From assembly GCA_051294905.1 (NCBI GenBank), contig CM119371.1, forward strand, positions 3,288,001 to 3,348,000: a stretch of 60,000 nt of DNA, written 5' to 3'. Position 1 is the first letter of the stretch; each line of letters opens with the position of its first letter. A model generated the notes under the pieces. The model saw nothing but the letters and a program-made list of their open reading frames with translations. It was not told the origin of the DNA and ran no database searches. The stretch is from Botryllus schlosseri (Eukaryota). Of this stretch, positions 1 through 32,789 are shown piece after piece. Made by a program: the position numbers and the translations under genes.

Positions 1-1814
1 TTACGTCATATGCGTAGTTGATTACTTTAGTAACGCTGAGATATGATTACGTCAATATTGCGTTGATCGCCTTTGTTATTGCAGTTGAAGCAAGTGCAAG
101 GCAATATATAACGTGTAATATTTATTACATGATTATTCGCTGTACGCTGTAGATTGAATGTGTGTAATAATATAAAAATTGGCTAAAATTGTGAATATCT
201 AATCATTGTGAAAATAGCAATTATCTCATGTTGTTGATGAAAATGATCAGCTTACGTTGTTATAAGCTCCAAAGCATGATTTAAATATTTTTTAAATATT
301 CCATTTTTTAAATAATAATACTTTGGTTCTAACTTTGGAATAATAATTATTGATAATATTTTCATTATTCATTGAAATCATTGTAGCTTATAACGGTGTA
401 CATCTTTTAAATATTATTGTAATGATATCAATTATTAACGAAAAAATATTATCAATAATCTTATTGATTTTTTAGTTAAATTATCGATTATCTTGTGTAG
501 TTGATAAATTAGTTTGTACAAAAGACGTTCACTGTTATAATCTACATGATTTCAATGATTATTAAAAAATAATTTTACTATTAAATCTAACAAAGTAACA
601 ATATAAAAAATTGGCTAATATTGTGAATATCGTATCATTGTGAAATTAGCAATTATCTCGTGTTGTTGATGAAAATAATCATCTTACGTTGTATTAGGAT
701 TAATTTTACAAAACTGTAGTGTAAAGGTTTTTAGTACTTTGGAAAAAGTAGTTTCTATCTACTTTACTAAATTTGATGTAAAGTGTTCGACGATTTAAAA
801 AATTGGTATTTATTTTACAAAATCCCCACTATAAAAGTTTTTATAAAATCGACTTGAGTAAGTACTGTCACTAGGCAAACGCTAGCAGAGTGTACTCTGA
901 TAAATGTAATAGTAGTAATCGATTATCGCGAAATAAATAGATAACATACAATATGTGCGTTGCTACGATGTCTCATAAATACTTTCATTTAATGTATACA
1001 AGTAGGTTATTTATACGTTAAGTAAAGAATAAAAAAATTAACGCTATCTCCGTAGAAAGATATGTAAATATACTAGAACGGTTACATCTGAACGCCTGCA
1101 AGTAAGAACGTAAGCTGATCATTTTCACCAACAACATGAGATAATTGCTAATTTCACAATGATTAGATATTCACAATATAAGCCAATTTCTATATTTTTA
1201 CTGATTATCTTATCATTGTGAGGTTTATTCAACTCTCATTAATTCAGGATTCTAGAACTACTGAAGTCTCATGGAATTATAAAATACCGTGCTTTGCAAA
1301 CAATGTAAAAATAATAGAAGCGAAGTTAGCTTGGTTCCCTGGGGACATCTATGCCTTTGTCAGGAATGTTCATCCAACGATTAGGTAATTGAATGCGCGC
1401 GCTTATCAATGCGTCTTGAAAAGCTGGTGGACGGGAAGTGAATACCCTAGACAAGTCCGAACCTGTATGTATTGCAGCATATTAGAGATAGCTTGTGCAA
1501 TAGCCCTAAATACAACAAAATGCGGAGAGCTGATATCGCAATAGGTGCGCGGTATTCGACAATAACAAAACGCAATTGTTCGAACTTAGTGCATCCCATA
1601 CCGCATTGTTAGCTCTAAATACTTATAACCGTTGAAAAATCTATTCCCCAATGAGTTAGACAGAAATGCGTTAGTCGTAGCGATTCAATCGTGTGCTCTA
1701 TAATAACAAAAACACAAATGACTTAGTGGATATCACTGCTAGCTCTAAATACCAGTTGCATAGCTGAGGCTAAATGCCGTAAATAACTACTGAGTTGGCC
1801 GAGTGGTGATGTAC

Positions 1815-2750
1815 TTGCTCGGAAATCGTCACTTCTTGCACTTTACTAAAAATTTGCTGCTACTAAAATGTTAAAATGTACTTTTTTCAATGGCCTTGAT
1901 GAGCAGCGTCAGTTTCATCTATATCCTATCATGCATTTTCGTACAGCAGAATGACTTATCGCATCGTAGAATAGCAAAAATACATCGAGAATCTGCAGAC
2001 TCTCACTGCGAAATATTTGAGTTTGACGAATTATCCTTCAAAGTGAGCTTACATATTGGATATCATCCAAACCCTCTCGATATGAAATAATTGATTATTT
2101 GGAGTACTCAAGTATAGGTTTCGCCTGCTTGGGCTATACTTAATCAAGCTACTATATGTTTAGACTAGAGTTTTCAGTTATGAGACAAATAATAACTTCA
2201 ATACTTACTTTTTTTAGTCACTCGGAAATCAACACACCATGTACTTTGGAAGAAATTTACTGGTAATAGAATGTTGAAATGTACTTTTCCATTGGCCTTG
2301 ATGAGCGGGCCCAGTTTCATCTATATCCTAGCATGCATTTTCGCACTTCAGAATGACTTATCACAATGAAAAATAGCACAAATACATCGAGAATTTGCGG
2401 AGTCTCACTGTACGATAATTGAGTTTTACCAATTACCCTTCGAAGTGAACCTACATGTTGGGTATTATCCAAAACCTCGTAGAATGTCGCTCCGAGCGAT
2501 AAATCCTTTGAATTAAGGTGGAAGCAGCTATTTCCGACTAAGTAAAATGTTAGTATTCTAGGTCTATTTCTGCTTAATTCTGAAACTATAATGGATTTGA
2601 AGCAGTAAAAATATGATAAACACTTGAGAGTATTTGGTACATGTACACTAAAAACTTACTTGAGTATACTCTGAAGAAGTCAACATTTACTTGTTTAGCC
2701 GCTCGGAAATCATCACTTCTTGTACTTTACTACAAATTCACTGCTGATGA
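1815..2750 (+). repeat. Diverged tandem units of ~400-490 bp (CTCGGAAATC...GTTTCATCTATATCCTA...GAATGACTTATC family)
   Basis: Units start at CTCGGAAATC (about 1818, 2221, 2702). Inverted homologues at about 4440-5300 and mirrored copies in the right arm. Confidence 0.8.
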
Positions 2751-3519
2751 ATGAGTAATCGACTTTAGTCGATATTCTCGTACTACGAAACTGAAGAATG
2801 AATAGACGCGTTTTCGAACTATAGAATGATATAGTCTCTACAAAATGTTTTTGACATCAAAATAACTTTTTTACATGAATGGTCACGTATCTTAATATTC
2901 AAATAACCCAACACAGAACTAGTATTACAATATTATCATAGTTCTTGTACCAAAGTTGTTTGTGCACAATATATGTTTAATGAAAGTCCTATACACATTC
3001 ATGATTTCGTCCGAGTTTGTATTTTAGAATATAATATACCGACATCGCGACATCTTTCAAAAACAAAACCATGATCACTGCTTGAGAGACCTATCAATGT
3101 CATCACAGTAATCTTGTAACTTTCACAAAAGAGTAGATATGTATTTGACTTTCGTTCCACAAAGCTAACGCGCAAACAGTTTACTTTACTAACGAGAAGT
3201 ATCGAGTTATCGAATGATTTTCCCTTACATCAAAACAAATAGAATGTAGATTGTAGAACTATATTTCTAACGTTCCTAACCCTTTGCACACCGCAGTTGT
3301 AAATCACACAAGCAACAAGTTTCGAGAAACGAGTTATTGAATAACGTGAAAGTGTTTTTCCAGTGTCAAGTCGTTATGTTGATTAAAGCATATAATGTAA
3401 TACCATGAAGTGAGACTTCGAAACTATCGTCAGTTCTCCATGAGCAAATATCGCGTTTTACAAGTGTTAAGATATTGTATTATGTAGCTAGTAATTGGTG
3501 CACGTAATCTCGGGATCGA

Positions 3520-3850
3520 ACCAACGTGTGTTAACTTGGGTTATTATGTACCTAGTAATTGGTGCGAGTAATGTCGCAACTGCTGTTGTTCAATGCATTT
3601 ACCATGTTCGTAGCAAGCATCTTAATAAGGATAGACAGCCCCAAGCAAATAATGTAAGTATGTATGTATGAATGATTGGTCTAATGGTGCTTAACGACAA
3701 AAGCTGGTCTTCTATTCTATATTCCGAAATAATCAAGTTGGTGATTTACCAACACCTCGCCTCATAGAAACTTGGTAGAATCACTTATAAATCCTCACGT
3801 TCACTTAACTAAATCTAATTTGATACTCGAGTACTGAACCTTAATTTTCC
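3520..3850 (+). repeat. ~330-bp dispersed repeat, direct copy at about 5910-6220
   Basis: Shared ATTATGTAnCTAGTAATT...GACAGnCCCAA...ATTCCGAAATAATCAAGTT...CCTCATAGAAACTT...CTAAATCTAATTTGATA. Confidence 0.8.
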
Positions 3851-6800
3851 AGCAGTGTGATAGACGCCGTCAGATGGTACTCAACATCGCATAATTCTGC
3901 TCGAATACAAGTAAAAGTACAGATTTCAAAGTAAGTAAGTAAGTAAGTAGGTAAGTAAGTGAGTAACTGGTTATGTTTGTAGACTATATCTCCACTTCTA
4001 CCTTTCAGACATGTTGAGCAGTGAAGTACATGTGTTTCTTCAAAGTAGTCAAGTAGGTTTTTGGCTACATGCACCAACTACTCAAGTGTTTATGATATAG
4101 GCCTGTTTCGAATTCAAGACAGTTTCAGTATTGAACAAAAATGGACCTTGAATACTAACTTTTTATAATGTGAAATTTTAAATGCATAAACGAAGAAACG
4201 TCACTTTTACAATGCTTCAGTATAATTTCTATATTATTCCACTCTCGTTATTGGACTGCGGTGTGACGGTGAGCTATATCTCGATGCCCGGGCTTCCGAA
4301 TTAATTTTTCGATTTATAGACCCTATGTAGATTTAACATAAGGAAGGTTATTTCACTCATAAAATTTGAAATACGTATTTGCTCGAGTTAAAGCCATAAC
4401 GCTTGCAGTGAAATTTTACGCGGTTTTCGTTAATATCCAACTTGGCTAATTCCGAAATGTGAATTGAAAAACTCAAATATCGTATAGTAGGACTTCGCAA
4501 TTTTCGATATAATTTTGCTATTTTTTCATGGTGATAAGTCATTTGGACGGTGAAATGCATTATAGGAAATAAATGAAACCGGTACAATTCATCAAGACCC
4601 CTGAAAAAAGTACATTACATTTCTACATTTTATTAGCAGGTAATCGAAATACCACAAACTGTGCTAACCTTCGGAGTTGTTAAGTAAAGAAGTACTCGTA
4701 CTTCTTCGGAGTACCCAAGTAGGTTTTTCGCCTACATGCACCAAATACTCTCAAATCCTTATGATATTGGAGTGCTTCAACTTCATGATAGTTATAGTAT
4801 TAAGCAGAAATATACCTGTAGTACTAACGTTTTACTTACTCGGAAATGACTACTTCTATCTTATTTTAAAGGATTCCTCGCTCGACGCGAAATTTTATTA
4901 GGTTTTGAATAATATCCAACATGTAGGTTCACTTTGAAGGGTACTTCGTAAAACTCAAATATTGCACAGTGAGAGTTCGCTAATTCTCGATGTATTTTTT
5001 GGTATTTTTATTGCGGTAAGTCATTCTGCAGCGCGAAAATGCATCATAGGATATAGATGAAACTGACAACGCTCACCAAGACCACCGGACCACTGAAAAA
5101 GTACGTTTCAATATTTTAGTAGCAGTAAATTCCTAGTAAAGTACAAGAAGTGATGATTTCCGAGTGAGTTAAAAAGTAAGTTTTGTAGGTATAGTTTGGT
5201 CGAAAACCGAAAACTCTGAAATAGAAGTAAATGCAGTGTAAAAAAGTTAATCACTTGATTAAGTATAGCACAAGCAGACCAAACCTATACTTGAGTACTT
5301 CAAAATGTACAAGTACTTCGCTATGGACTCCCTCCACGTAAAAAATGACTAGGTTTTAGACTACTTTATCGGTACTTGACAGTTTCAGTTTTAGATAAGA
5401 TTTGGAATATAAACTAGCTCATTCACCCACTTGGAAATCTCTTCTTTAACCTGTACTTGAGCGTAGCAAGTAAATCTCATTTAATATTAATTCTGCACGT
5501 ACACTTGACCATATTTTATGACTTACATAATTACTTTTCAATTATTTGAAGTCAAGTCTGTCAAATAGCAGTATATGTTACGATGAGCTTATATTCGTTC
5601 TGTTTGATCATCTTAACTAATGATATTCATTCGGCGAGCTCTCCAGTGATAGCCTTGGGACTTGGAACAGTGCTATATGACATCATAGCGATACGAGGTT
5701 ACGACAGTTTATAATTAGCTACCTTACGACACCAAATTTCGTTAGTTCATCTCCACCTTCAAATATCGTGTTATACAAATATTGTGTGTACGGAACAAAT
5801 ACATATATGGCTATGTTGTTGCAATCTGCAAAAAAGTACCCCCCTCAGTAACCAATTTCTGGTAGGCTATGCATACAAATGAGGACAGTTACATCAACGA
5901 GTCGTAACTTGTTGTATTATGTAGCTAGTAATTAGTGCAAGTAAGTCCGCAACTACTGTTCAAGACCTTTTCCGCGTTTTTTGTCAAGCATCCTCGTAAG
6001 GACAGACAGTCCCAATCAGCTAATGTAAGTGTGTATCTATGTACGAGGGGTCTTATGGCGGTTGACGAATGAAGTTGGTCGTCTGTTCTATTCCGAAATA
6101 ATCAAGTTAGTGATTTTTAACAGGACCTCACCTCATAGAAACTTCAGTGGAATAACTTACAACTCCTCACGTTTACTCAGCTAAATCTAATTTGATAATC
6201 AAGTACTGAATCTTAATTTTCAAACGAGTTCAAATTTTACTCTAACTTATGAGATTACATATAATAACTTTTCACGATGGAATGTATTTTACAGCATGAG
6301 CCAAGTGATTTCGTAATTAACACAAGATAATTAAATGAATTTCTAGAGTATTATAACATATTCGTCTCATCCTCCTTCGTGTATCATAAAAGAATATCTA
6401 CTGCAGTCGATTTGTAATTATTTGCGCTGTGTTTGATTAACTCAATCATTAACTCAATCAACACAGCGCAAATAATTACAAATCGACTGCAGTAGATATT
6501 CTTTTATGATACACGAAGGAGGATGAGACGAATATGTTATAATACTCTAGAAATTCATTTAATTATCTTGTGTTAATTACGAAATCACTTGGCTCATGCT
6601 GTAAAATACATTCCATCGTGAAAAGTTATTATATGTAATCTCATAAGTTAGAGTAAAATTTGAACTCGTTTGAAAATTAAGATTCAGTACTTGATTATCA
6701 AATTAGATTTAGCTGAGTAAACGTGAGGAGTTGTAAGTTATTCCACTGAAGTTTCTATGAGGTGAGGTCCTGTTAAAAATCACTAACTTGATTATTTCGG

Positions 6801-9800
6801 AATAGAACAGACGACCAACTTCATTCGTCAACCGCCATAAGACCCCTCGTACATAGATACACACTTACATTAGCTGATTGGGACTGTCTGTCCTTACGAG
6901 GATGCTTGACAAAAAACGCGGAAAAGGTCTTGAACAGTAGTTGCGGACTTACTTGCACTAATTACTAGCTACATAATACAACAAGTTACGACTCGTTGAT
7001 GTAACTGTCCTCATTTGTATGCATAGCCTACCAGAAATTGGTTACTGAGGGGGGTACTTTTTTGCAGATTGCAACAACATAGCCATATATGTATTTGTTC
7101 CGTACACACAATATTTGTATAACACGATATTTGAAGGTGGAGATGAACTAACGAAATTTGGTGTCGTAAGGTAGCTAATTATAAACTGTCGTAACCTCGT
7201 ATCGCTATGATGTCATATAGCACTGTTCCAAGTCCCAAGGCTATCACTGGAGAGCTCGCCGAATGAATATCATTAGTTAAGATGATCAAACAGAACGAAT
7301 ATAAGCTCATCGTAACATATACTGCTATTTGACAGACTTGACTTCAAATAATTGAAAAGTAATTATGTAAGTCATAAAATATGGTCAAGTGTACGTGCAG
7401 AATTAATATTAAATGAGATTTACTTGCTACGCTCAAGTACAGGTTAAAGAAGAGATTTCCAAGTGGGTGAATGAGCTAGTTTATATTCCAAATCTTATCT
7501 AAAACTGAAACTGTCAAGTACCGATAAAGTAGTCTAAAACCTAGTCATTTTTTACGTGGAGGGAGTCCATAGCGAAGTACTTGTACATTTTGAAGTACTC
7601 AAGTATAGGTTTGGTCTGCTTGTGCTATACTTAATCAAGTGATTAACTTTTTTACACTGCATTTACTTCTATTTCAGAGTTTTCGGTTTTCGACCAAACT
7701 ATACCTACAAAACTTACTTTTTAACTCACTCGGAAATCATCACTTCTTGTACTTTACTAGGAATTTACTGCTACTAAAATATTGAAACGTACTTTTTCAG
7801 TGGTCCGGTGGTCTTGGTGAGCGTTGTCAGTTTCATCTATATCCTATGATGCATTTTCGCGCTGCAGAATGACTTACCGCAATAAAAATACCAAAAAATA
7901 CATCGAGAATTAGCGAACTCTCACTGTGCAATATTTGAGTTTTACGAAGTACCCTTCAAAGTGAACCTACATGTTGGATATTATTCAAAACCTAATAAAA
8001 TTTCGCGTCGAGCGAGGAATCCTTTAAAATAAGATAGAAGTAGTCATTTCCGAGTAAGTAAAACGTTAGTACTACAGGTATATTTCTGCTTAATACTATA
8101 ACTATCATGAAGTTGAAGCACTCCAATATCATAAGGATTTGAGAGTATTTGGTGCATGTAGGCGAAAAACCTACTTGGGTACTCCGAAGAAGTACGAGTA
8201 CTTCTTTACTTAACAACTCCGAAGGTTAGCACAGTTTGTGGTATTTCGATTACCTGCTAATAAAATGTAGAAATGTAATGTACTTTTTTCAGGGGTCTTG
8301 ATGAATTGTACCGGTTTCATTTATTTCCTATAATGCATTTCACCGTCCAAATGACTTATCACCATGAAAAAATAGCAAAATTATATCGAAAATTGCGAAG
8401 TCCTACTATACGATATTTGAGTTTTTCAATTCACATTTCGGAATTAGCCAAGTTGGATATTAACGAAAACCGCGTAAAATTTCACTGCAAGCGTTATGGC
8501 TTTAACTCGAGCAAATACGTATTTCAAATTTTATGAGTGAAATAACCTTCCTTATGTTAAATCTACATAGGGTCTATAAATCGAAAAAATTAATTCGGAA
8601 GCCCGGGCATCGAGATATAGCTCACCGTCACACCGCAGTCCAATAACGGGAGTGGAATAATATAGAAATCATACTGAAGCATTGTAAAAGTGACGTTTCT
8701 TCGTTTATGCATTTAAAATTTCACATTATAAAAAGTTAGTATTCAAGGTCCATTTTTGTTCAATACTGAAACTGTCTTGAATTCGAAACAGGCCTATATC
8801 ATAAACACTTGAGTAGTTGGTGCATGTAGCCAAAAACCTACTTGACTACTTTGAAGAAACACATGTACTTCACTGCTCAACATCTCTGAAAGGTAGAAGT
8901 GGAGATATAGTCTACAAACATAACCAGTTACTCACTTACTTACCTACTTACTTACTTACTTACTTTGAAATCTGTACTTTTACTTGTATTCGAGCAGAAT
9001 TATGCGATGTTGAGTACCATCTGACGGCGTCTATCACACTGCTGGAAAATTAAGGTTCAGTACTCGAGTATCAAATTAGATTTAGTTAAGTGAACGTGAG
9101 GATTTATAAGTGATTCTACCAAGTTTCTATGAGGCGAGGTGTTGGTAAATCACCAACTTGATTATTTCGGAATATAGAATAGAAGACCAGCTTTTGTCGT
9201 TAAGCACCATTAGACCAATCATTCATACATACATACTTACATTATTTGCTTGGGGCTGTCTATCCTTATTAAGATGCTTGCTACGAACATGGTAAATGCA
9301 TTGAACAACAGCAGTTGCGACATTACTCGCACCAATTACTAGGTACATAATAACCCAAGTTAACACACGTTGGTTCGATCCCGAGATTACGTGCACCAAT
9401 TACTAGCTACATAATACAATATCTTAACACTTGTAAAACGCGATATTTGCTCATGGAGAACTGACGATAGTTTCGAAGTCTCACTTCATGGTATTACATT
9501 ATATGCTTTAATCAACATAACGACTTGACACTGGAAAAACACTTTCACGTTATTCAATAACTCGTTTCTCGAAACTTGTTGCTTGTGTGATTTACAACTG
9601 CGGTGTGCAAAGGGTTAGGAACGTTAGAAATATAGTTCTACAATCTACATTCTATTTGTTTTGATGTAAGGGAAAATCATTCGATAACTCGATACTTCTC
9701 GTTAGTAAAGTAAACTGTTTGCGCGTTAGCTTTGTGGAACGAAAGTCAAATACATATCTACTCTTTTGTGAAAGTTACAAGATTACTGTGATGACATTGA

Positions 9801-12800
9801 TAGGTCTCTCAAGCAGTGATCATGGTTTTGTTTTTGAAAGATGTCGCGATGTCGGTATATTATATTCTAAAATACAAACTCGGACGAAATCATGAATGTG
9901 TATAGGACTTTCATTAAACATATATTGTGCACAAACAACTTTGGTACAAGAACTATGATAATATTGTAATACTAGTTCTGTGTTGGGTTATTTGAATATT
10001 AAGATACGTGACCATTCATGTAAAAAAGTTATTTTGATGTCAAAAACATTTTGTAGAGACTATATCATTCTATAGTTCGAAAACGCGTCTATTCATTCTT
10101 CAGTTTCGTAGTACGAGAATATCGACTAAAGTCGATTACTCATTCATCAGCAGTGAATTTGTAGTAAAGTACAAGAAGTGATGATTTCCGAGCGGCTAAA
10201 CAAGTAAATGTTGACTTCTTCAGAGTATACTCAAGTAAGTTTTTAGTGTACATGTACCAAATACTCTCAAGTGTTTATCATATTTTTACTGCTTCAAATC
10301 CATTATAGTTTCAGAATTAAGCAGAAATAGACCTAGAATACTAACATTTTACTTAGTCGGAAATAGCTGCTTCCACCTTAATTCAAAGGATTTATCGCTC
10401 GGAGCGACATTCTACGAGGTTTTGGATAATACCCAACATGTAGGTTCACTTCGAAGGGTAATTGGTAAAACTCAATTATCGTACAGTGAGACTCCGCAAA
10501 TTCTCGATGTATTTGTGCTATTTTTCATTGTGATAAGTCATTCTGAAGTGCGAAAATGCATGCTAGGATATAGATGAAACTGGGCCCGCTCATCAAGGCC
10601 AATGGAAAAGTACATTTCAACATTCTATTACCAGTAAATTTCTTCCAAAGTACATGGTGTGTTGATTTCCGAGTGACTAAAAAAAGTAAGTATTGAAGTT
10701 ATTATTTGTCTCATTACTGAAAACTCTAGTCTAAACATATAGTAGCTTGATTAAGTATAGCCCAAGCAGGCGAAACCTATACTTGAGTACTCCAAATAAT
10801 CAATTATTTCATATCGAGAGGGTTTGGATGATATCCAATATGTAAGCTCACTTTGAAGGATAATTCGTCAAACTCAAATATTTCGCAGTGAGAGTCTGCA
10901 GATTCTCGATGTATTTTTGCTATTCTACGATGCGATAAGTCATTCTGCTGTACGAAAATGCATGATAGGATATAGATGAAACTGACGCTGCTCATCAAGG
11001 CCATTGAAAAAAGTACATTTTAACATTTTAGTAGCAGCAAATTTTTAGTAAAGTGCAAGAAGTGACGATTTCCGAGCAAGTACATCACCACTCGGCCAAC
11101 TCAGTAGTTATTTACGGCATTTAGCCTCAGCTATGCAACTGGTATTTAGAGCTAGCAGTGATATCCACTAAGTCATTTGTGTTTTTGTTATTATAGAGCA
11201 CACGATTGAATCGCTACGACTAACGCATTTCTGTCTAACTCATTGGGGAATAGATTTTTCAACGGTTATAAGTATTTAGAGCTAACAATGCGGTATGGGA
11301 TGCACTAAGTTCGAACAATTGCGTTTTGTTATTGTCGAATACCGCGCACCTATTGCGATATCAGCTCTCCGCATTTTGTTGTATTTAGGGCTATTGCACA
11401 AGCTATCTCTAATATGCTGCAATACATACAGGTTCGGACTTGTCTAGGGTATTCACTTCCCGTCCACCAGCTTTTCAAGACGCATTGATAAGCGCGCGCA
11501 TTCAATTACCTAATCGTTGGATGAACATTCCTGACAAAGGCATAGATGTCCCCAGGGAACCAAGCTAACTTCGCTTCTATTATTTTTACATTGTTTGCAA
11601 AGCACGGTATTTTATAATTCCATGAGACTTCAGTAGTTCTAGAATCCTGAATTAATGAGAGTTGAATAAACCTCACAATGATAAGATAATCAGTAAAAAT
11701 ATAGAAATTGGCTTATATTGTGAATATCTAATCATTGTGAAATTAGCAATTATCTCATGTTGTTGGTGAAAATGATCAGCTTACGTTCTTACTTGCAGGC
11801 GTTCAGATGTAACCGTTCTAGTATATTTACATATCTTTCTACGGAGATAGCGTTAATTTTTTTATTCTTTACTTAACGTATAAATAACCTACTTGTATAC
11901 ATTAAATGAAAGTATTTATGAGACATCGTAGCAACGCACATATTGTATGTTATCTATTTATTTCGCGATAATCGATTACTACTATTACATTTATCAGAGT
12001 ACACTCTGCTAGCGTTTGCCTAGTGACAGTACTTACTCAAGTCGATTTTATAAAAACTTTTATAGTGGGGATTTTGTAAAATAAATACCAATTTTTTAAA
12101 TCGTCGAACACTTTACATCAAATTTAGTAAAGTAGATAGAAACTACTTTTTCCAAAGTACTAAAAACCTTTACACTACAGTTTTGTAAAATTAATCCTAA
12201 TACAACGTAAGATGATTATTTTCATCAACAACACGAGATAATTGCTAATTTCACAATGATACGATATTCACAATATTAGCCAATTTTTTATATTGTTACT
12301 TTGTTAGATTTAATAGTAAAATTATTTTTTAATAATCATTGAAATCATGTAGATTATAACAGTGAACGTCTTTTGTACAAACTAATTTATCAACTACACA
12401 AGATAATCGATAATTTAACTAAAAAATCAATAAGATTATTGATAATATTTTTTCGTTAATAATTGATATCATTACAATAATATTTAAAAGATGTACACCG
12501 TTATAAGCTACAATGATTTCAATGAATAATGAAAATATTATCAATAATTATTATTCCAAAGTTAGAACCAAAGTATTATTATTTAAAAAATGGAATATTT
12601 AAAAAATATTTAAATCATGCTTTGGAGCTTATAACAACGTAAGCTGATCATTTTCATCAACAACATGAGATAATTGCTATTTTCACAATGATTAGATATT
12701 CACAATTTTAGCCAATTTTTATATTATTACACACATTCAATCTACAGCGTACAGCGAATAATCATGTAATAAATATTACACGTTATATATTGCCTTGCAC

Positions 12801-12840
12801 TTGCTTCAACTGCAATAACAAAGGCGATCAACGCAATATT

Positions 12841-14090
12841 GACGTAATCATATCTCAGCGTTACTAAAGTAATCAACTACGCATATGACGTAATCATTAC
12901 TGAACATGCTTCAACTGCAATACGCAATCATAATGACGTAAATATTTATCAGTGTTATTGGACTGGAAGTAACAAACACAGTAGCTGTAGCGTAACTGGT
13001 CTTATTCACAATATACATTTGAGTACACATTTAACACATTACTATAGTACAGGGTGGACAGATCTGCTTCATGCGCGACTAATGTAGTCGTTTCGAAAAC
13101 ATAGCATGCGCAACGGAATTGGTCGTTATGTTGAAATTAATAACATTGTTGCTTTGTGTATATCTTATTCATTTTTTAGGTAAATTATCAATTATCTTGC
13201 GTTGTTGATGAAAATAATTAGTTTGTACAAAAGACGTTCACTATTATAATGTGCACGATTTCAATGATTAATAAAAATAAGCTATTGCAAGTTTTCCAGA
13301 ATGCTGATGCTGGCTTTGCTATTGGAGCTTTTCCAAATAGCAATACGCAGTAGCATTATCGCAGGTGATGCTACTTGATTAGCTTTTGAGTGTAATTTAA
13401 CCCTTGAGTAGCCTCGATGATGATTTGTGCAAGTCAAAATTGACTTTTTATGAAATGAACGTTATAATGATACCGATTTCAGGTGCATCAAACTTGCAAA
13501 TCGCTCATACTTCCCATTTTGTTTTGTTTTATGACTCAGCGAAAACGGTTATTGCACAATTTATCTCTAATATGCTGCAATATACAGGTTCAGACTTGTC
13601 TATTCACTTCCGTCGACTGACTTTTATAATACATTTTACACAATCAAATACACATGTGCAGTTTATTTGAAGTAATAAACGATCGAGCACATTTACTAAT
13701 CGTTCAGAACACCGCGTAGAGCTCCCCTGAGATCCTGGGATAGTGACGGCTTAAATGTTAGTTTTCACTGGACTGGAACTAAGCAAAGCCGCTCTCGTAA
13801 TAACTAAAGTAATCAGCTACGCATATGACGTAATCATTACTGCACATGCTTCAACTGCACAATCATAATAACGTAAACATTTCTCAGCGTTATTAGACTG
13901 GAACTACACGCAATAATGACGTGATAATATCTCAGCGTTACTGGAACTAAGCAAAGTCGCTCTAGTAATAACTAAAGTAATCAACTACGCTTGTGACGTA
14001 ATCATGAATATGGTGCAATACGCAATCATAGGTAATCAACTTACGCAATGACGTAATAAATATCTCAGCGTTACTGGACTGGAACTATGC
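12841..14090 (+). repeat. Degenerate short-unit repeat rich in TGACGTAATC and TCTCAGCGTTACTGGACTGGAACT
   Basis: Recurring modules at 12841-12970 and 13765-14090 (AACTAAAGTAATCAACTACGC, TGACGTAATCA, GGACTGGAACT), mirrored at 1-120. Confidence 0.75.
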
Positions 14091-14119
14091 CATCTCTCCA
14101 ACAACCAAAACCTCTCTCG

Positions 14120-14215
14120 TATTGGAACCACACCTACATTGTTCTGCATTCTGATTGGCTAACAGATGTCACGTGATCAAATACTCGATGACTATTGGTC
14201 GGCGTATAAACCCGC
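14120..14215 (+). promoter_or_regulatory. Putative Pol II promoter (reverse CCAAT boxes, E-box, TATA)
   Basis: CTGATTGGCT at 14151, GTCACGTGA at 14168, ATTGG at 14194 and GTATAAA at 14204, in canonical order and spacing. Function is inferred only. Confidence 0.35.
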
Positions 14216-14616
14216 TGTATAATACTACTCGATTGTGCGTGCTTTAGTTTGATTTGACAGTAATGAATGAATGTATAAATGTGTATACTTGTGATTCTTG
14301 TTGTGGTTGTGAACAGCAGACTATTCTGTAGGTGCGAAACAGCGGTATACAAGGTGCGAATAATCCGATCTGAAAGTACTATTCAGGTTACGTAGAAATC
14401 AATAGACACAGCGCGAAAAGACTTGAGACGATCGGTCGTTTGTCACGACTAAACTACATCATATATAATAATTTACGATATACACATTAACAAAGGTACA
14501 TTCACATGACTATTCATCTGGTACATATTCAACACCGTGCCGCCGCGCCTATACCCACAACGTTAGTCAAATCATCTCTACCTGAAAGGATTACCGTGCG
14601 ACCACAAGACACAAAT

Positions 14617-15272
14617 AGCCGCATGCCACCCCCGCCATAAGACAAAAGAGCCGCTTGCCACCCCGGATTTCCCAGCCGCATGCGACCCCCGCCGTAAGAC
14701 ATAAGAGCCGCATGCCACCCCCGCCATAAGAATAACGATATATCATTGTCGTACTCACCGTAAACGTTGGGATTAACTCGAATCAGTCATATTTAATAAT
14801 TTGTAATGTACACATTAACTAAGAATCAATCACGTGACTATTTACTATTCCTGATACCTATTCAACACAGCGCGAGAGTTGACTAGACCCGAAAGGGCGA
14901 TTCATGACCGCACCCATAAGAACACATGGCGAATCACCAGAGACCCCGTAAGAATACATGACAGACACATCACCGACGCAGCCTATACCTGAAAGGGTGC
15001 TGTCACCAGAGATACCATAAGAGACAATGGCACATCACCAGAGATCCCGTAAGAATACATGACAGGCACATCACCGACACAGCCTATACCCGAAAATACG
15101 ACTCACCAACACGAGTTTTCACGGCACATCACTGACGCAGCCTATACCTGAAAGGGTACCATCACCAGAGATCCCATAAGAACCCATGGCACCTCACCAG
15201 CGGAAGGGGGGGTCAAAAGGGTGCCATCACCAACACGAGTTTCGCGGCACCTCACCAGCGGGCCCTATACTA
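14617..15272 (-). repeat. Modular ~26-36-nt tandem arrays in the putative retroelement 3' UTR
   Basis: About 4x AGCCGCATGCCACCCCCGCCATAAGAC (14617-14732). About 11 TCACC-anchored modules at 14934-15272 (types TCACCAGAGATCCCATAAGAA, TCACCGACGCAGCCTATACCTGAAAGGGT, TCACCAACACGAGTTT). Confidence 0.9.
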
Positions 15273-15330
15273 CCCCATGTTAAAAAGCGCGTCATGCGAG
15301 CGATCTACTATACTACTGGCATTCGCATTT

Positions 15331-18300
15331 CTATCCAATTCTTTGTTCTTCTTTGGACATGAAGGTAGATATTTTTTCAGTCCATTTCTTTATTTCTTTG
15401 TTCTTCTGGGTATTTTCGTGCAGCTTGAATCTCTGCAACAGTTTCCCCAGGATTTTCTTGATTGCGTTTCTTTTCCATTTCTTTTCTTCCTCCAAATACA
15501 CATTTTCGATGTCGAGGTGTTGTTTTTGTGTCAACACCGTTCTTTTGTAGATTGATAACAATGTCAAGCCATCTGAATTCAGCTTGTTCATTAATATCAT
15601 TTCTCTTTTTGCAGGTGACAACTCCAGGATTCTCTCTACGCCTCTCAGAACAGCTAACGTCACTTTGCACTCGGCGAATACGTGGTCTACCGTCTCCTCT
15701 TTTATTTTGCAGTATTTGCATTTGTGTTCTTCCATTTTCCCTTTTATTATTTTTAGCATTCCACGTCTTTTTTTGTTCGTTCCAAAGTTGTATCCGTCTT
15801 GTGCTATTCTGTAATTAATGATCTTTTCTTTGTTTGTTGGTTTTACCTCTCTGTTTTTCTTTGATTTTTTAAGTCCTAGCCAATTTGTGTTTGTGATCGT
15901 GTCTTCCTTTTCTTCACACATGTCTGTTAATGTGGTATATATTATTTTGAAGTCGGCTTCTTGAAGCTGTTCTCTTCCCCACTTCAGCTTTTTGTATCTT
16001 TTCAATGTTATGGCCCAATCTTTATTTGGTATATTTTTGTGCGGGGTGCTGTTGGTGTACAGTTCCGGATTGATTTGGTTGATTTTTGTTCCTAATTGAT
16101 ATAATGCATGTTTTTGCCAAAATTCTTCTGGTTTGTCAATATTAGCTAAGTCTCTCATCTTCATTATGTCGCTGGTAGTGTCTTTCCATATTGGGAATGG
16201 GATTGCCATGCCTCCCTTTTCTTTACTTGAGGCTATAGTTTATTCCTGGATATCGTTTCCATCTTTTCTGGATGATAAAGAAACTCAAAGAACAGTTTGT
16301 TTAGTTCTTTTGTTTGTTGTTTCCCAGGTGGATACACTCGCGCCACATACAGAATCTGCGAGGTTGCCAAGCTGTTAAGCACATTCTTTTTACCAATCCA
16401 GGTAAGGTCTCTTCCCTGCATAAGTTAAGTATGTTTTTAACTTTGGCTATTTTTCTCCTCCACATCTCTTCTTCGTTCTTCTCTCCTAGGAGGAGTCCCA
16501 GTACCTTAATTTGTTCATGGTAGAACTCGTTAATTTCTGGGTTTCTCCTCCTTTTCTTCGCTTCCTTATTTGTCGCAAGGATTTGTGTCTTTTTTTCGTT
16601 AACTTTCTGGCCCGTAGCCTTTTCAAAGTCCTGCAGATGTTGCAGGATTTTTATTATAGATTCCTCGTCTATTACTGTTGCTGTCAGGTCATCAGCGTAC
16701 TGCTGCATTTTCGTTTCACCTTGGTTGCCTATCGAAACACCTTTTATATTTTCGTCTTTTATTATTTTTCTAATCAAAGGGTCTGCCGCAATGGCGTACA
16801 GTGACATACTCATTGGGCAGCCCTGCCTTATTCCTCTCTTGATTTTAATTGTCTGCGATATCTTTCCATTTGCCACTATATTGCTGGTTGCTTTTTTATA
16901 TGTCGTTTCGATGTATCTGTGGAGTTTTGTTCCAAGATTCAATGTTTTAATCAATTTCATCAAATATTCATGATTTACCATATCGAAAGCCTTCTCTTGG
17001 TCAAAACTGGCTATGAATAAGGGCTTCTTCTTATACTTGGTGTAATCAATGGCTGCTTTAATGTTCAAGGTGGCATCGTGAATGTAGCGTTGGTTCACGC
17101 TGCATTTTTGGCTTTTGTAAATGATGTTAGGCATAATCTCTGACAGTCTTCTGTTAATTATTTTGGATAGGATCTTATAATCCGAGTTGAGCAGTGTCAA
17201 CGGGCGATAGTTTCTAAGTTCTTTGCTATCTCCTTTTTTGTAAATCATTTTAACTATGCCCTTTGTCCAAGATTCACATAGTTGATTAAACAAAAAGGCA
17301 TTGTTCATGACTTCTGTTAGTTCAGTCTTAATCAATTTCCAAAAGGTTTTATAAAATTCAGCATATAGTCCATCGCTGCCTGGCGATTTCCCACTCTGCA
17401 TTCTATCGATAGCCTCTTTTATTTCATCTTCAGAAATGGGACCGTTAAGGATATCCCGTTGTTCTTGTGTTATTCCCACATTCTTTACTTCTTCCACAAA
17501 TTGGCCTTGTTTGTGCCTATCTGTTGTTGGTTTTCTACCCCATAAATTTTGGTAGAAATTTGTTATTTCTCCCATTATTTCATTTTCATTGGTTAGCAAG
17601 TTTTGATCTTCGTCTACTAATTGTGCTATGTTTTGTTTCTCTATCTTGTATCTCAGTCTTTCAAAAAATTCTTTACTTGGTTTTTCGTTTATCTCCCTAT
17701 CATTATTACCTGCTTGTATTAATGATTTTTTGAAGTCTTCTTTCTCTAGATCTCCTAGTTCTGAAACTAATTCGTGAAATTCTGCCGAATTCCTTTCTAC
17801 GTTATTTATCTTGTTTGTTAGAATTCTCATTCTTTTTTTCCTTTCCTTGCTTAGTTCTTTTCCGTTTCTTAATAATACGTTCTTTATTTCTGTTTTTATT
17901 CCATCCCACCACTCAGTGATGTGACTGGTCGTTTTTTTCTGCTCTGCATATAACTCGTATATTTGTGTTATTTCAGACCTAACCGCTTTATTCTTGTATA
18001 ATTCCACATTATTTTTCCATATTCCTGGACCCCATTTGGTTGATTCGGGTTTCCTAATTGTCAAAATTCCCATGTATAAGTGGTCTGACATCAAATTAAT
18101 TTTATATTCAAATCCTTGTATTTCTTTTTGTACCTCTTTGGAGCAGTACACCCTGTCAATCCTTCTCTCTTGGTGGAATCTTTTAATTGTGTAAAGTTTT
18201 TTCATGGGGTGTCTGGTTCTGAAGACATCTATGAGGTTGTTTTCCCTACAAGTGTCCTTCCAACTTTTTGCTGCAGCGGTAGGTCTGTATTTGTCAACAA

Positions 18301-18793
18301 ATCGAGCATCTAGCTTGTGGCAGATCATGTTGAAGTCGCCACATATGACCTTTCTATTTATTTTAGTTTTCATTTTTCTATTAGGCACTTTAAAGAAATC
18401 TGTCTGTTGTTTGCCTACCTCTGCGGGGGCATACACGTTCCAGATCTCTATATTGTTGTCTTGGTTCTTTAAGCTTACTTTCTGTGCTCTATGCTTGACT
18501 ATTATTTTCTCTTCTATCTTGTATTTCTCTGCTAGCTTTTTTCTGACTAATATTGCTGTGCCTTGGTAGTACAGCTTTTTGTCATTTGGCAGAGCGATCC
18601 AAGTTTCTTTTTTATCTATGCAGTTAAAATATATTATGTAGTTCAATTTGTCGCATCCCTTTTTTATCAATTCCTTGTCTAATTTATGCGTTTCTTGTAT
18701 ACACAGTATGTCTAATTTCCTCTTTTCTAGTACTAATTTTAGCTTATTCCAACTTCTGTGCATACCATTTATGTTAATTGTTACGATCTTGAA
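15331..18793 (-). pseudogene. ORF2 pol: apurinic endonuclease + reverse transcriptase + C-terminal CCHC; two 1-nt frameshifts (about 16420 and 16237)
   Basis: APE motifs KIVTINING, LCIQETH, NVYAP, GDFN, RIDR, SDH, WGPGIWK. RT motifs KSPGSDG, YRPLTLLNSDYKI, DQEKAFD, GIRQGCPMS, QYADD. Continues as GRDLTWIGK, KEKGGMAIP and CKYC-x8-HVFAEC in the shifted frames. Confidence 0.93.
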
Positions 18794-18798
18794 TTTAT

Positions 18799-19890
18799 TT
18801 ATTTGATAAGAGGGGTGAATCTGTTCTGCGTTGGCGTTGTTTGACCTTGTTGTTTAAATTTCGGTTGCCGATTATTTCTGTTCCTGTTCTTCCTCGCTTT
18901 TGAGGTGGACTGTTGCCACCTCTGCAAGATTTTTTCTTTTTCTTCCACAGTGAATTGTTTCACCACGGGGCTGTCACACTCGTTTTCAGCCTGTTTACTT
19001 CCCTTTTCCTCCTTCTCTCCCTCATCTGAGTCTGTGCCATCAGAAGACAGGTTCGGCAAGTATTCTATTTCTACCTCCTCTACAATTGTCTTTTCTTGGG
19101 TTTCGTTATTTTCGCTGTGTTTGGGTGCTTGTTTGACCGAGTCATCATCACTCAATTCTTCATCTTCCTCGCTCGATGTACTCTCGTCATCTTCTGGTTT
19201 TTGTACTGTTCCAGCCTTTTCAAGGCTATTTTTTTTTACTTTTTCTGTGTTCGTTTCATTCAGACGTGGAAAGTCTTCGTTTTTTCTTTCACACTCATTT
19301 TGTTTGTGTCCTGGTTTTTTGCAGTACCAACAGACTATCTCGTTAGAGCAGTCTTTTGTGATGTGGTCTTTGCCGAAGCAAAGGTTGCAGAGTTTTTCCC
19401 TTCCCAAAGGTTGGAAGACTCTGCACTTCACACCATCCACTTCCAACATTTCAGGAATGTTTTCCTTTATTTCGTCTTCAAGCTCGACTCGCCTGAAGCC
19501 GTTGTATATCGTCGTGCCCTTGTGGTGCACTTTTTCAACTGTACCAACTTTTCCGCAGTTTAAGGCCGATAATATTTCTTTTATTTCACTGTTTTCAACC
19601 TCAGTGGGGACTGCCCTGATGTTTATTGTGTATTTCTGGTTTCTGGGTTTGTACAGCCACACTGTATAACCTTCCGTTTTGATCATTCCTTTTGTTTTTT
19701 CCATTATCTCTGTCCTTATTTCCTCCGTTTCATAAGTTAGGTTGTATGCACGTCTGCCGTTTTGGAACAAGCCTTCAAGTTGTGCAATATTTTCTTTCAG
19801 TTGTTTATTTTCTGTTACCAGCTGAATCGCTTGTTTCAGTTCTATTTCTTTACTGAAGATTAAGTCGATTGATCTAGTTCTCCCTTTCAT
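18799..19890 (-). CDS. ORF1 gag-like nucleic-acid chaperone (RRM-like region + 2 CCHC zinc knuckles + acidic tail), 363 aa
   Basis: CNLCFGKDHITKDC and CWYCKKPGHKQNEC. INIRAVP...IYNGFRRV segment typical of Tx1-like ORF1. Lies directly upstream of ORF2. Confidence 0.9.
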   Translation of the reverse strand: MKGRTRSIDLIFSKEIELKQAIQLVTENKQLKENIAQLEGLFQNGRRAYNLTYETEEIRTEIMEKTKGMIKTEGYTVWLYKPRNQKYTINIRAVPTEVENSEIKEILSALNCGKVGTVEKVHHKGTTIYNGFRRVELEDEIKENIPEMLEVDGVKCRVFQPLGREKLCNLCFGKDHITKDCSNEIVCWYCKKPGHKQNECERKNEDFPRLNETNTEKVKKNSLEKAGTVQKPEDDESTSSEEDEELSDDDSVKQAPKHSENNETQEKTIVEEVEIEYLPNLSSDGTDSDEGEKEEKGSKQAENECDSPVVKQFTVEEKEKILQRWQQSTSKARKNRNRNNRQPKFKQQGQTTPTQNRFTPLIK

Positions 19891-20291
19891 TCTTGTAGCC
19901 TCTGACCGCTCTGTGGCTAGTTATATCAACAATGCCGCTAGACAATCAAAAAATTGGGAGACAAAGGAGTCCTTTGTTCCGTCCGATTGTCTATCTAAGC
20001 GCGGATCTTCTGTCCGCAGCCTGGAATTTGTAGCGATATTTCTATTTTATTTGGTATTTATTGGTCTCCACAAACTGTATTACGCTCGTATGTTGTTTAC
20101 AAGCGTCTATTTATGCTTTCTACTGCCAATTTGTCCAATTCTTCCAATACTCTAATCTGAATATCGGCGATTTCTATGCCTATGTAGCTGTCTGCTGTTG
20201 ACTTTACAACTCAGTTCCCTTGTAATATAATCGAGATTATTGACGTTATTGAAACACGTTTCAGCACATATTAGACTTGTTCCGAGTGCAA

Positions 20292-22026: not shown

Positions 22027-23668
22027 TAGGGTTGTCCATAATTTGGAAAATCTTACGAATCCTCCGTTGTAATGTCTTATTCTATAGATTATTGATAAAA
22101 AACGACACTGAGCCCGAAAGAAGCTCACAGGAAGGCCGTTAAGATTTCGTGCAAAGCGTTTGAAAGTTGCTGCTGAAGAATGGGCGTGCCACTGACCATA
22201 GAACGGCGAGAAGACTAGCAATCACAAAACCACGGCTCTTGATTGGCTAATCTGCTATGCTTCAATGACCACTACAGCAGCAGCAGCTTACTGTGTAGGT
22301 GATCAAAGAGTCTACTACCGGCGGCGATTCTGAATGCGCATTGTATGTAGGTTGACAGATAATGATTTAGGATTGATTCAGGATATGTTGAGGTACGAAG
22401 TACATGATGAACAAACAACAGCTGCTTCACAAAACGTCTAAAGCCAGACCGCTTTATTGTGAAGAAAACTGCCGTAGCCTATATGCCTTGTTTTCAATGA
22501 GGGAAAGCATAGGCGCTTATGCAAATAGTGACAGATTGCTAGTTTCAGAAAGGTTATATCATCATTGAATACAAAGATAAAGCTTAACAATGACACTATA
22601 ATTTGTGTGATCTTATTGGGCTCCGGTTGTAGTACATAATTGAAGTTTTGAATGCTCTAGGGATCGACTGAATCAGACGGTTAGGCTTGGCACTTATCAG
22701 ATGTTAACAGCAAATTGAATTCACTTGTAAGTGTTTTCAAAGTCCCGAATGATGCCGCAGAAACGAGGTTTAAATGCAAGCACAGACTATGCTTGATATG
22801 TTGTACAAACTATGCTGGATGCTATGCACTATGCGGCATTGTCTGTGCCTACCTTTACACCCCCTTTCTGTGCGATTAATAAGGACTTTGATATATCATG
22901 TCCAGCATAGTATGTGCTTACTTTTACACCTCTTTTCTGCGTCATCATCAAGGACTTTGACAACACTTGCAAGTGAATACATTTTGATGCAAGCATCTGA
23001 AAGGTGCCTAGTATAACCCGCTGATTCAGTCGATCCTTGGAGCTTTAAAAACTTCAACTATGTACTACAACCTGAGCCCAATAAGATCACACAAATTATA
23101 GTGTGATTGTCGAGCTATATAGTTGTATTCAATAATGATATATTCTTTCTGGAACTAGGAATCCGTCTCTACTTGCATAAGCGCCTATGCTTTCTCTCGT
23201 TGAAAACAAGGCATATAGGCTATGGCGGTTCCCTTCACAATAAAGCGGTCTGGCTTCAGACGTTTTGGTGAAGCAGCTGTTGTTTGTTCATCATGTATTT
23301 CGTACCTTAACATACCCTGAATTAATCACAAATCATTATCTGTCAACCTACATTACATGCGCTTTCAGAATAGCCGCCGGTAGCAGACTTCTTCATCACC
23401 TACACAGCAAGCTGCTGCTGTCGTAGTCATTGAAGCATAGCCGATTAGCCAATCAAGAGCCGTGGTTTCGTGATTGCTAGTCTTCTTGCCGTTCTATGGT
23501 CGGTGGCACGCTCATTCTTCGGCAGCTACTTTCAAACGCTTTGCACGAAATCTTAACGGCCTTCCTGTGAGCTTCTTCCAGGCTCAGTGTCGTTTTTTAT
23601 CAATAATCTATAGAATAAGACATTACAACGGACGATTTGTAAGATTTTCCAAATTTTGGACAACCCTA
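22027..23668. mobile_element. Foldback-like non-autonomous DNA transposon with ~650-bp inverted arms
   Basis: Termini TAGGGTTGTCCA/TGGACAACCCTA; 8-bp TSD ATGATCAC (22019-22026, 23669-23676). Arms about 22027-22680 and 23017-23668; ~70-bp tandem duplication in the spacer. Confidence 0.9.
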
Positions 23669-28400: not shown

Positions 28401-29657
28401 GGAAGCTATTTGGAACCTGTAGATACCGTTGCGTTTTGATAGAGTGCTGCCATCAGTATAAATTCGTGTTACTTGGTCGAAAACCTTATTTTCTGATTGA
28501 CCGTCATCATTATATACAGCCTATATTCATTGTCTCGTGAGTCTCGTCTGTTTCGCTAGCTGAGCATGAATTCCAGTTTTATTCCGAGTAAATATAACTA
28601 AATAAGTCGAATGGGTGCACTTAACTGTACGTGGTTATCCGAGCGTGACTTCTAGATTATTCTGGAAATTTGAACCGCGCTTCGCGCTTCGTTCGCGGGA
28701 TGACTGTTTCGGAATGTGGTTGTAGTTGTGTATGTTAAATTCTGGAAGCTGGAATTGCGACTGGTACCGGATGTGGGTAAAAACTAGGTGTACGGTACAT
28801 AGTTGAGCGAGTAATATGCTATTTTGAAGGAATACCCTGTAGTTTATGACTCCGAGAGCTGTTTGACTTGCTGCAAACAGTTCGAAAATTACGTCTATTT
28901 CGGTGGCTGTAATAATAATAATACAAGCATTTTCAGCTATTTATAACATTATAATGTAGCATGTTATCAGGGACAATCACCGTACCGGACTGCATACTAT
29001 ATGGGTTGCTCAATGGCATGGTCGTCTGCAGTTATCCACGTAAGTTTCTAAAATTATGCTTACATGAGTCATTTTCGTATCATATTATGATAACATACCG
29101 TAACATGTAGGAGATTATATGACACGGCCTACTGGGTATAATCTTAGCGCTGGCGACCAGCTGTACCAACTACTTTTTCACTGATTCCTAAAATACTAAT
29201 TAAAATCTCGTCCGGGCACTGAAACCCCCTAAAATCTCCCACAAAGTTGGAAATTTTCATTTTACTGAACAATAGGGGCGCCCGAGCTGAATGCCGATTA
29301 ACATTTGGTACGCACGGTACCGATTGTGACGCCATGCCATTGAGCGTCTCGGCGAAGTCAAGCCGTGCTCCCGGTGAGGCCGTGACCCTCTGAGTATGTT
29401 GCTAGAGATTGATGTGATGCCAATATACGTCCTATTCGAGTAGTTTTAGTATTTCGCGTCGTAGCGCATTTACAAATATGAGAATACAAATGATAGCACT
29501 GAAGCCAACGCATATTGTAGAATTTACTATCAACATCAACGTGTAGGAAGCTAGCTGGCCTATTTACAAAACAATTATATAGTTCCATTCGGGTCTTGAT
29601 GGTTCCTAAATTTTATTTGAATTGGCAATATTGGAACGTAGTTTTAGGTGTTGCAAC

Positions 29658-29831
29658 CAATGTTCCCTGTAAGCTGCTCAAGTGTGCAATTGCGACATGC
29701 CGACACCGTATCTGGGCACAGAAAATTTAAGCTGCGCACAAAACATCAAAGTGATGACCTTTTTTTAGTCGCTACGCACTGTTGTCCAAGTTGAGTGCGT
29801 GCAGACTCTTGAAAAATTGGAGGGAACATTG
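29658..29831. mobile_element. hAT-type MITE (CAATGTTCCCT family)
   Basis: TIR CAATGTTCCCT/AGGGAACATTG; TSD GTTGCAAC/GTTGCAGC; inverted homologue of 39906-40099. Confidence 0.85.
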
Positions 29832-32541: not shown

Positions 32542-32703
32542 ATAGCTGGATTCAGCTCAGTTGGAGGCGACACAAATGGCCAATCTGTCAGATCCATCAT
32601 GAAAAAGGTCGCTACTACCCGTGTGTGGAGCAGTTACAGCCGTGTTGGAAAATCTGAGAAGGAGGCTTTTAACAAGCTCGCGTTGTACAAGATCATATAT
32701 ATA
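32542..32703 (+). CDS. Internal exon encoding a DUF4806-like (BEN-like) domain, probably the accessory gene of the EnSpm-like element
   Basis: TTTCAG| acceptor and |GTGAG donor; open phase-0 frame IAGFSSVGGDTNGQSVRSIMKKVATTRVWSSYSRVGKSEKEAFNKLALYKIIYI fits GG...VRxIM...YSxxGK..KxxFxxL. Confidence 0.62.
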
Positions 32704-32789
32704 GTGAGCAACATTTATGTTTACCTTCGAACCTATCTATATGTGTTCAGTAGCCTACCTTACACCCCATGTAAATGTTGAGCTAGCTC

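What the first reader, a model, noticed from the sequence alone, without database searches (positions are those of the whole stretch)
1..12893. At least 12.9-kb near-perfect DNA palindrome running off the window edge
Seen: the ~6.4-kb arms are almost identical, with only a handful of differences noticed, several clustered near 4010-4310. Established: long palindromes with tiny spacers are unstable and arise from fold-back replication, breakage-fusion-bridge cycles or hairpin-ended DNA, but also from fold-back chimeric reads or MDA. Inference: either a recent real inverted duplication (possible long-dsRNA source or resolved hairpin end) or an assembly artefact. The few arm differences mildly favour a real structure.
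Basis: partly seen in the sequence, partly recalled or inferred. Interest (0 to 1): 0.7.

Follow-up and report, generated by a model that had tools for sequence, protein, structure and literature searches.

The report
Gene-less giant palindromic transposon copy
This mirror-image stretch of animal DNA is most likely one copy of an abundant, gene-less mobile element that is a palindrome from end to end and probably borrows the enzymes of virus-like Maverick transposons, rather than a one-off rearrangement or an assembly error.

Summary
Observation confirmed: arms 1-6433 and 6460-12893 differ at 5 places (4 within 295 bp) around a 26-nt spacer. The arms are non-coding and belong to a high-copy repeat family present in 4 of 4 public runs laid (3 samples, 3 studies). 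At 25 of 26 sites where this copy departs from the family majority, both arms carry the same rare letter, so one arm was copied from the other recently. To the right, two Maverick-type ends (ACTACT, at 14229 and 15317) would give a wholly palindromic element of 15.6 or 17.7 kb; the motif alone is weak, and the left end and target duplication lie outside the window. Position 1 is not the end of its genome piece. Best reading (0.7): a near loop-less copy of such a helper-dependent element, copied through a snap-back hairpin. The centre junction was not shown in independent data, so a local fold-back or an artefact remains possible.

The parts
1..6433 (+). Left arm, cut by the window edge; non-coding; holds degenerate internal sub-repeats in both orientations
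   Evidence: sub-repeats 71-93% alike
6434..6459 (.). 26-nt AT-rich spacer with the 12-mer ATTAACTCAATC twice; the minus strand can pair almost to a 3-nt apex (G-T pairs, one bulge, one 1x1 loop), the plus strand leaves a more open loop
   Evidence: the fully paired form is only 5% of the predicted ensemble
6460..12893 (-). Right arm, mirror of 1-6433 (5 differences); high-copy family sequence
12894..14229 (-). Inferred continuation of the right arm (its mirror would lie before position 1); sub-repeats rich in TGACGTAA at 12831-14087, some matching sequence inside the visible arm
   Evidence: 6 TGACGTAA in 12831-14229, 0 in 6460-12830; depth at arm level up to 14121
14222..14235 (-). Candidate right end B: AGTAGTAT on the minus strand ending at 14229, next 6 bases CGATTG (candidate target duplication); predicted element length 15,565
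   Evidence: motif as in PMC8097293; partner end outside window
14230..15317 (.). 1.1-kb GC-richer segment with 32- and 101-bp tandem sub-repeats and far higher summed depth than the adjoining arm: either the element's own terminal repeat shared with other families, the end of a second element it is nested in, or the 3' UTR of the neighbouring LINE
15310..15323 (-). Candidate right end A: AGTAGTAT on the minus strand ending at 15317, next 6 bases GGCATT; predicted element length 17,741; 13 bases from the stop codon of the LINE ORF2

Best explanation
The palindrome is the middle of one integrated copy of an abundant, gene-less mobile element that is a palindrome from end to end (15.6 or 17.7 kb, 26-nt spacer) and depends on autonomous Maverick/Polinton elements. 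Mechanism (inferred): a helper's protein-primed polymerase starts at the AGTAGT end; the displaced or nascent strand folds back at the centre into an 8-9 kb hairpin whose open end again looks like a normal Maverick end; copying round the hairpin (or mismatch repair inside it) makes the two arms alike and yields the open two-arm form, which the helper's integrase inserts with a 6-bp duplication. Shown here: palindrome, no genes, high-copy family, arms recently copied from each other, end motif on the right. Inferred or taken from unchecked scan notes: left end, target duplication, helper, replication route.
For: Arm is a repeat family: 30 of 30 bins of 6400-15300 covered in 4 of 4 runs (3 samples, 3 studies); 26,732 of 23.8 million X1 contigs lie on it, summed depth 1,758-63,222 over the arm bins against 8.5-20.5 for the shallowest listed X1 pieces (the tool warns this is no copy number). 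Arms homogenised: of 35 listed variant sites inside the arm, 26 have >=80% other letter in X1, and at 25 of these 26 the left arm shares the window's rare letter; the 26th (10715) is an arm difference where the left arm has the family letter in all 4 runs. No genes: longest stop-free frame 112 aa, reached by 34 of 200 shuffles; no codon bias among three sub-repeat copies (P=0.33); no Pfam hit for arm ORFs; 0 Rfam, 0 tRNA. (ACT)2 end motif in the right orientation at 14229 and 15317 (motif and 6-bp duplication defined in PMC8097293). Piece continues at least 15.7 kb before position 1 and the element noted there has no mirror image in this window, so the mirror symmetry stops within that distance. 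Lead, not proof: scan notes list gene-less whole-element palindromes of about 15, 15.5, 16, 17.0 and 17.2 kb with Maverick ends in this genome. Precedent for template-switch subgenomes of protein-primed replicons: phi29 (PMC4974454).
Against: The end motif alone is weak: AGTAGTAT occurs 3 times in the window against 2.0 expected (36 of 100 shuffles reach 3). No joint, loose end or contig across 6433-6460 or at 14229 is listed (tables cut: 15 of 128 joints, 24 of 1,698 loose ends, 32 of 33,864 pieces shown; the lay stopped at 15300). No sequence link to the elements in the scan notes: three sequence look-ups returned nothing. No autonomous Maverick in the window. The 14230-15317 segment may simply be the LINE's 3' UTR, since strand bias flips at the ORF2 stop. 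Shared rare letters are equally expected from a fresh local fold-back or a fold-back read. Only 40 of 490 variant rows were shown, chosen by the tool.
Confidence: 0.7

Rival explanations
1. A one-off, real, recent fold-back inverted duplication (intra-strand priming at the TGATT/AATCA micro-repeat, or end joining with a templated 12-mer) that happened to form inside ordinary repeat DNA or inside one arm of a larger element.
For: Short spacer with a tandem 12-mer and an imperfect stem; arms 99.9% alike and sharing rare letters.
Against: The symmetry stops within 15.7 kb upstream and the piece continues on both sides; the whole arm is family sequence at similar depth up to the centre bin; predicted total length matches whole-element palindromes noted elsewhere (unchecked).
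Confidence: 0.1
2. A real non-autonomous foldback transposon moved by a cut-and-paste transposase (Mutator, P or hAT type), with the ACTACT motifs being chance.
For: Long modular inverted arms, no ORF, high copy, as in foldback elements (PMC4079207); a small hAT-type foldback with an 8-bp duplication sits at 22027-23668 in this window; weak motif statistics.
Against: Tetris arms reach 1,735 bp round a middle domain, against >=6.4 kb and no middle domain here; cut-and-paste gives no obvious way to put the same rare letters in both arms, short of gene conversion.
Confidence: 0.1
3. Assembly artefact: a fold-back read or mis-join mirrored one real arm.
For: Fold-back reads are 0.55-0.6% of ONT genomic reads and often have <=11 bp between segments (PMC12870357); junction not listed; at 12 listed sites no X1 contig carries the window's letter, and no run holds half or more of the words.
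Against: Position 1 is inside a long piece and the mirror does not reach the element 15.7 kb upstream; 4 of 5 arm differences are substitutions and one of them restores the family letter; fold-backs are virtually absent from HiFi reads (this assembly's technology is unknown); spacer is not an adapter-like or homopolymer sequence (adapter sequence recalled).
Confidence: 0.08

Closest known systems
Maverick/Polinton elements (PMC8097293 passages; PMC4196379 passages summarising Kapitonov and Jurka's model)
   Same: Size range 15-20 kb, (AGT)2//(ACT)2 end motif on the visible side, proposed single-stranded racket-like intermediate closed by the inverted repeats
   Different: No pPolB, integrase, capsid or any other gene; the inverted repeat is the whole element (>=6.4 kb per arm, 26-nt spacer) instead of 100-1,000 bp; 6-bp target duplication not visible here
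Foldback transposons (FB, Galileo, Tetris; PMC4079207 passages)
   Same: Non-coding, long inverted arms with internal sub-repeats, non-autonomous
   Different: Arms several times longer, no middle domain, sub-repeats dispersed in both orientations; foldbacks mostly Mutator-type with 8-10 bp duplications
Snap-back / template-switch subgenomes of DNA replicons (phi29 subgenomic DNA, PMC4974454 passage; AAV snapback genomes, 10.1101/2020.10.20.346957, search listing only; hairpin derivatives of yeast pGKL1 plasmid, recalled)
   Same: Palindromic molecule keeping only the replication end, dependent on a helper
   Different: Those are transient extrachromosomal or packaged molecules made of recognisable parental sequence; this one is chromosomal, high-copy and has no recognisable parental genes
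Gene-less palindromic Maverick-ended families noted by this scan in the same genome (e.g. e1-7884688, e1-7884660, e1-7803412; unchecked notes)
   Same: Genome, architecture, length class, lack of genes, end motif
   Different: Several noted families have a roughly 1-kb loop with a small gene; this copy has a 26-nt spacer. Sequence identity to any of them was not shown

Membership tests
Maverick/Polinton (autonomous) | pPolB, retroviral-like integrase, ATPase, protease, capsid genes | tested here: not met
   No ORF above 112 aa in 6460-14229 and no Pfam hit
Maverick/Polinton-dependent (non-autonomous) | 5'-(AGT)2 // (ACT)2-3' ends | tested here: inconclusive
   ACTACT at 14224-14229 and 15312-15317; frequency not above chance; left end outside window
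Maverick/Polinton-dependent (non-autonomous) | 6-bp target-site duplication | not testable with these tools
   Left flank not in the window; no genome held. Predicted CGATTG or GGCATT
Maverick/Polinton-dependent (non-autonomous) | Terminal sequence shared with an autonomous Maverick of the same genome | not testable with these tools
   No helper sequence available; exact-pattern scans of viral and metagenome contigs gave nothing relevant
Mobile repeat family | Many dispersed similar copies | tested here: met
   30 of 30 bins covered in 4 of 4 runs, tens of thousands of variant contigs at 90-100%; dispersal itself not seen
Foldback transposon (Mutator/P type) | Long modular inverted arms, no ORF | tested here: met
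Foldback transposon (Mutator/P type) | Middle domain between arms; 8-10 bp target duplication | tested here: inconclusive
   Middle domain absent (26 nt); duplication not visible
Long-read fold-back artefact | Junction absent from independent data; symmetry ends with the read or contig | tested here: inconclusive
   Junction not listed but tables cut; piece continues upstream

The most novel reading that the evidence does not exclude
The 26-nt centre is a conserved, imperfectly paired hairpin end shared by a whole family, so the element is the integrated open dimer of an 8-9 kb linear replicon with a terminal-protein origin at one end and a closed hairpin at the other: a gene-less, self-correcting snap-back parasite of animal Mavericks and a chromosomal record of how Mavericks copy their DNA.
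Probability: 0.35. Interest if true: 0.8.

Novelty: new variant of a known kind. Interest (0 to 1): 0.55.

Why it matters
If the reading holds, a long palindrome with a 26-nt spacer, normally unstable, persists because it is re-made at each round of copying. The single-stranded fold-back intermediate of Maverick replication is a model without direct evidence in the papers I read; an abundant loop-less satellite gives a concrete target (hairpin DNA of half the element's length with protein on one end). It also warns assemblers that such palindromes can be real repeats and should not be filtered as fold-back reads. As one more, incompletely visible copy, this window adds mainly the loop-less centre and the shared rare letters.

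Tried and rejected
No whole genome held, so copies, left end and target duplication could not be counted. Exact-pattern scans: viral contigs 0 hits for both right-end candidates and 0 for a short centre pattern that is not identical to the window's own centre; metagenome contigs 0 for the centre, 1 for end A, a chance 21-nt match in a 57% GC bacterial contig, L001. Sequence look-ups in earlier findings 0 of 3, word look-up. No RNA holder listed; no RNA run was laid, so the dsRNA idea is untested. Hidden genes in the arm: rejected. A target duplication for the LINE that would fix its 3' end: only 8-10 nt matches, none convincing. LINE protein searches did not name the host (none; 52 relatives at 25-35%). 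My first idea that 25.5-41.2 kb is a second, older palindrome was rejected: two separate hAT copies, each with its own 8-bp duplication. Depth halving as an artefact test is unusable on a high-copy repeat. Literature: ten searches showed no paper on whole-element palindromic Mavericks; the library lacks most subscription papers and Repbase, where non-autonomous Polintons are described (recalled); no supplements were read, and bioRxiv supplements are closed.

Full report
Observation. The palindrome is there as described. Arms 1-6433 and 6460-12893 are reverse complements apart from four substitutions (2179/10715, 4010/8884, 4224/8670, 4245/8649) and a 1-base indel (4304/8589). Four of the five fall in 295 bp, more clustered than chance (P about 0.002, post hoc). 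The 26-nt spacer holds ATTAACTCAATC twice. Folded as DNA, the minus strand can pair almost to a 3-nt apex with G-T pairs and a bulge, while the plus strand leaves a more open loop; the fully paired form is only 5% of the ensemble.

Context. The window is repeat-rich eukaryotic DNA (scan notes call the host an animal): an L1/Tx1-like LINE, hAT elements and MITEs, no tRNA or Rfam hit. The scan's index places another finding, a 12,858-letter element, 15,701 letters before the window on the same piece. So position 1 is not the end of the piece. That element has no mirror image in the right part of this window, so the symmetry stops within 15.7 kb upstream.

The arm is a high-copy, non-coding family. 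Of 24 runs listed for 6400-15300, 20 hold part of it (11 studies), none half of the words or more. I laid 4 of these (X1, X2, X4, X8: 3 samples, 3 studies; all contigs). All 30 of 30 bins are covered in each; in X1 26,732 of 23.8 million contigs lie on the stretch (6,372 at >=99%, 9,896 at 95-99%, 10,464 at 90-95%), with summed depth 1,758-63,222 over the arm bins against 8.5-20.5 for the shallowest listed pieces (not a copy number). The centre bin is at arm level (3,152 in X1). The longest stop-free frame in 6460-14229 is 112 aa, reached by 34 of 200 shuffles; three copies of the main internal sub-repeat show no codon-position bias (24/18/15, P=0.33); arm ORFs have no Pfam hit. The small loop gene and SSB-like gene that scan notes give for other families have no visible counterpart here.

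The arms were copied from each other. One search shows 40 of 490 variant rows; I dropped the 5 outside the mirrored arm. Of the 35 left, 26 have another letter in at least 80% of X1 depth. At 25 of those 26 the left arm carries the same rare letter as the right; the exception, 10715, is one of the arm differences, and there the left arm has the family letter in all four runs. Arms ageing independently after insertion would not share rare letters. This fits arm-to-arm copying during propagation, but also a fresh local fold-back or a fold-back read; it does not separate these.

Ends. Vertebrate Mavericks end in (AGT)2//(ACT)2 with a 6-bp duplication (PMC8097293, passages). ACTACT occurs in the right orientation at 14224-14229 and 15312-15317, both as AGTAGTAT on the minus strand. 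With the centre fixed, these give elements of 15,565 or 17,741 bp and predict CGATTG or GGCATT before the left end. Against over-reading: the 8-mer is not above chance in the window (3 seen, 2.0 expected). The segment between the two candidates has tandem sub-repeats and summed depth of 41,000-153,000 in X1 against 600-8,500 in 12934-14121. It may be a terminal repeat shared with other families, the end of a second element in which ours is nested, or the LINE's 3' UTR, because strand bias flips right at the ORF2 stop. I cannot choose; the lay ended at 15300 and lists nothing at 14229.

What earlier notes added. My first reading was a one-off fold-back duplication (55%), artefact (35%), foldback transposon (10%). 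Look-ups then showed many notes on gene-less, Maverick-ended palindromes of 12-17 kb in this genome, some described as perfect palindromes of about 15, 15.5, 16 and 17 kb. They prompted the search for ends. They are unchecked AI notes; three sequence look-ups gave no link to them, and I could not count copies or see a target duplication myself.

Mechanism (inferred). Polintons are proposed to replicate through a single-stranded racket closed by their inverted repeats (PMC4196379, passages; 10.64898/2026.07.28.741278, passages). An element that is all inverted repeat would snap back into an 8-9 kb hairpin whose open end is a normal origin. A helper's protein-primed polymerase copying round it, or repair within it, equalises the arms and gives the two-arm duplex for the helper's integrase. 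Template switching by a protein-primed polymerase yields 1-8 kb subgenomic DNA in phi29 (PMC4974454, passage); snapback genomes are reported for AAV (search listing); hairpin derivatives of pGKL1 and imperfect hairpin ends of pox- and parvoviruses are recalled only. None of these steps is shown for this element.

Rivals. Local fold-back (0.1): fits the spacer, but not easily the bounded symmetry. Cut-and-paste foldback transposon (0.1): fits the modular arms, but Tetris arms reach 1,735 bp, with a middle domain and 8-10 bp duplications (PMC4079207, passages). Artefact (0.08): fold-back reads are 0.55-0.6% of ONT genomic reads and virtually absent in HiFi (PMC12870357, abstract, Results, Discussion); the junction is not listed, whose tables are cut (15 of 128 joints, 24 of 1,698 loose ends, 32 of 33,864 pieces), so it is neither shown nor excluded.

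Novelty. Not an autonomous Maverick (no genes). Membership of the Maverick-dependent class is likely but untested on its defining features. Ten literature searches and passages of PMC8097293, PMC6431247, PMC11071308 and 10.1101/2023.08.22.554363 showed no description of whole-element palindromic Mavericks; most subscription papers and Repbase were not searchable and no supplements were read. The scan has noted this kind of element before on other DNA of the same genome. Verdict: new variant of a known kind; interest 0.55.

Noticed in passing
window 25535-37131 and 38572-41181: Two copies of one hAT family in opposite orientation, 98-99% alike, ends CAGTGGCGGCTC: a long copy (8-bp duplication CTACATTC; transposase split over 26476-28286, minus strand, Pfam DUF4371 and hAT dimerisation) and a 2.6-kb internal-deletion copy (duplication AATGATAG), 1.4 kb apart; looks like a local hop.
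   Followed up: partly
window 22027-23668: Small foldback element: about 795-bp arms 88.6% alike, 77-bp spacer, ends TAGGGTTGTCC, 8-bp duplication ATGATCAC (hAT-type).
   Followed up: partly
window 15331-19920 (minus): L1/Tx1-like LINE: ORF1 with zinc knuckle-like motifs, ORF2 endonuclease-RT-zf-RVT broken into two frames near 16240-16300; nearest proteins only 25-35% identical; no poly-A tail or target duplication found.
   Followed up: partly
window 33253-34153: 243-bp inverted repeats, 90% alike, 415 bp apart: probable MITE.
   Followed up: no
window 46114-46389 (minus): Weak Pfam AAA_9 (dynein motor) hit, E 9e-4, below the curated cut-off; possibly a small exon or chance.
   Followed up: no
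window 4010-4304 / 8589-8884: Four of the five arm differences sit in 295 bp: may be a patch converted from another family copy, or polishing with reads of another copy.
   Followed up: partly
window 6785-13683: In run X4 the listed contigs match the outer arm (10745-13683) at about 99-100% but the inner arm (6785-10727) at only about 92-94%, suggesting a mosaic of sub-families (8 pieces shown).
   Followed up: no
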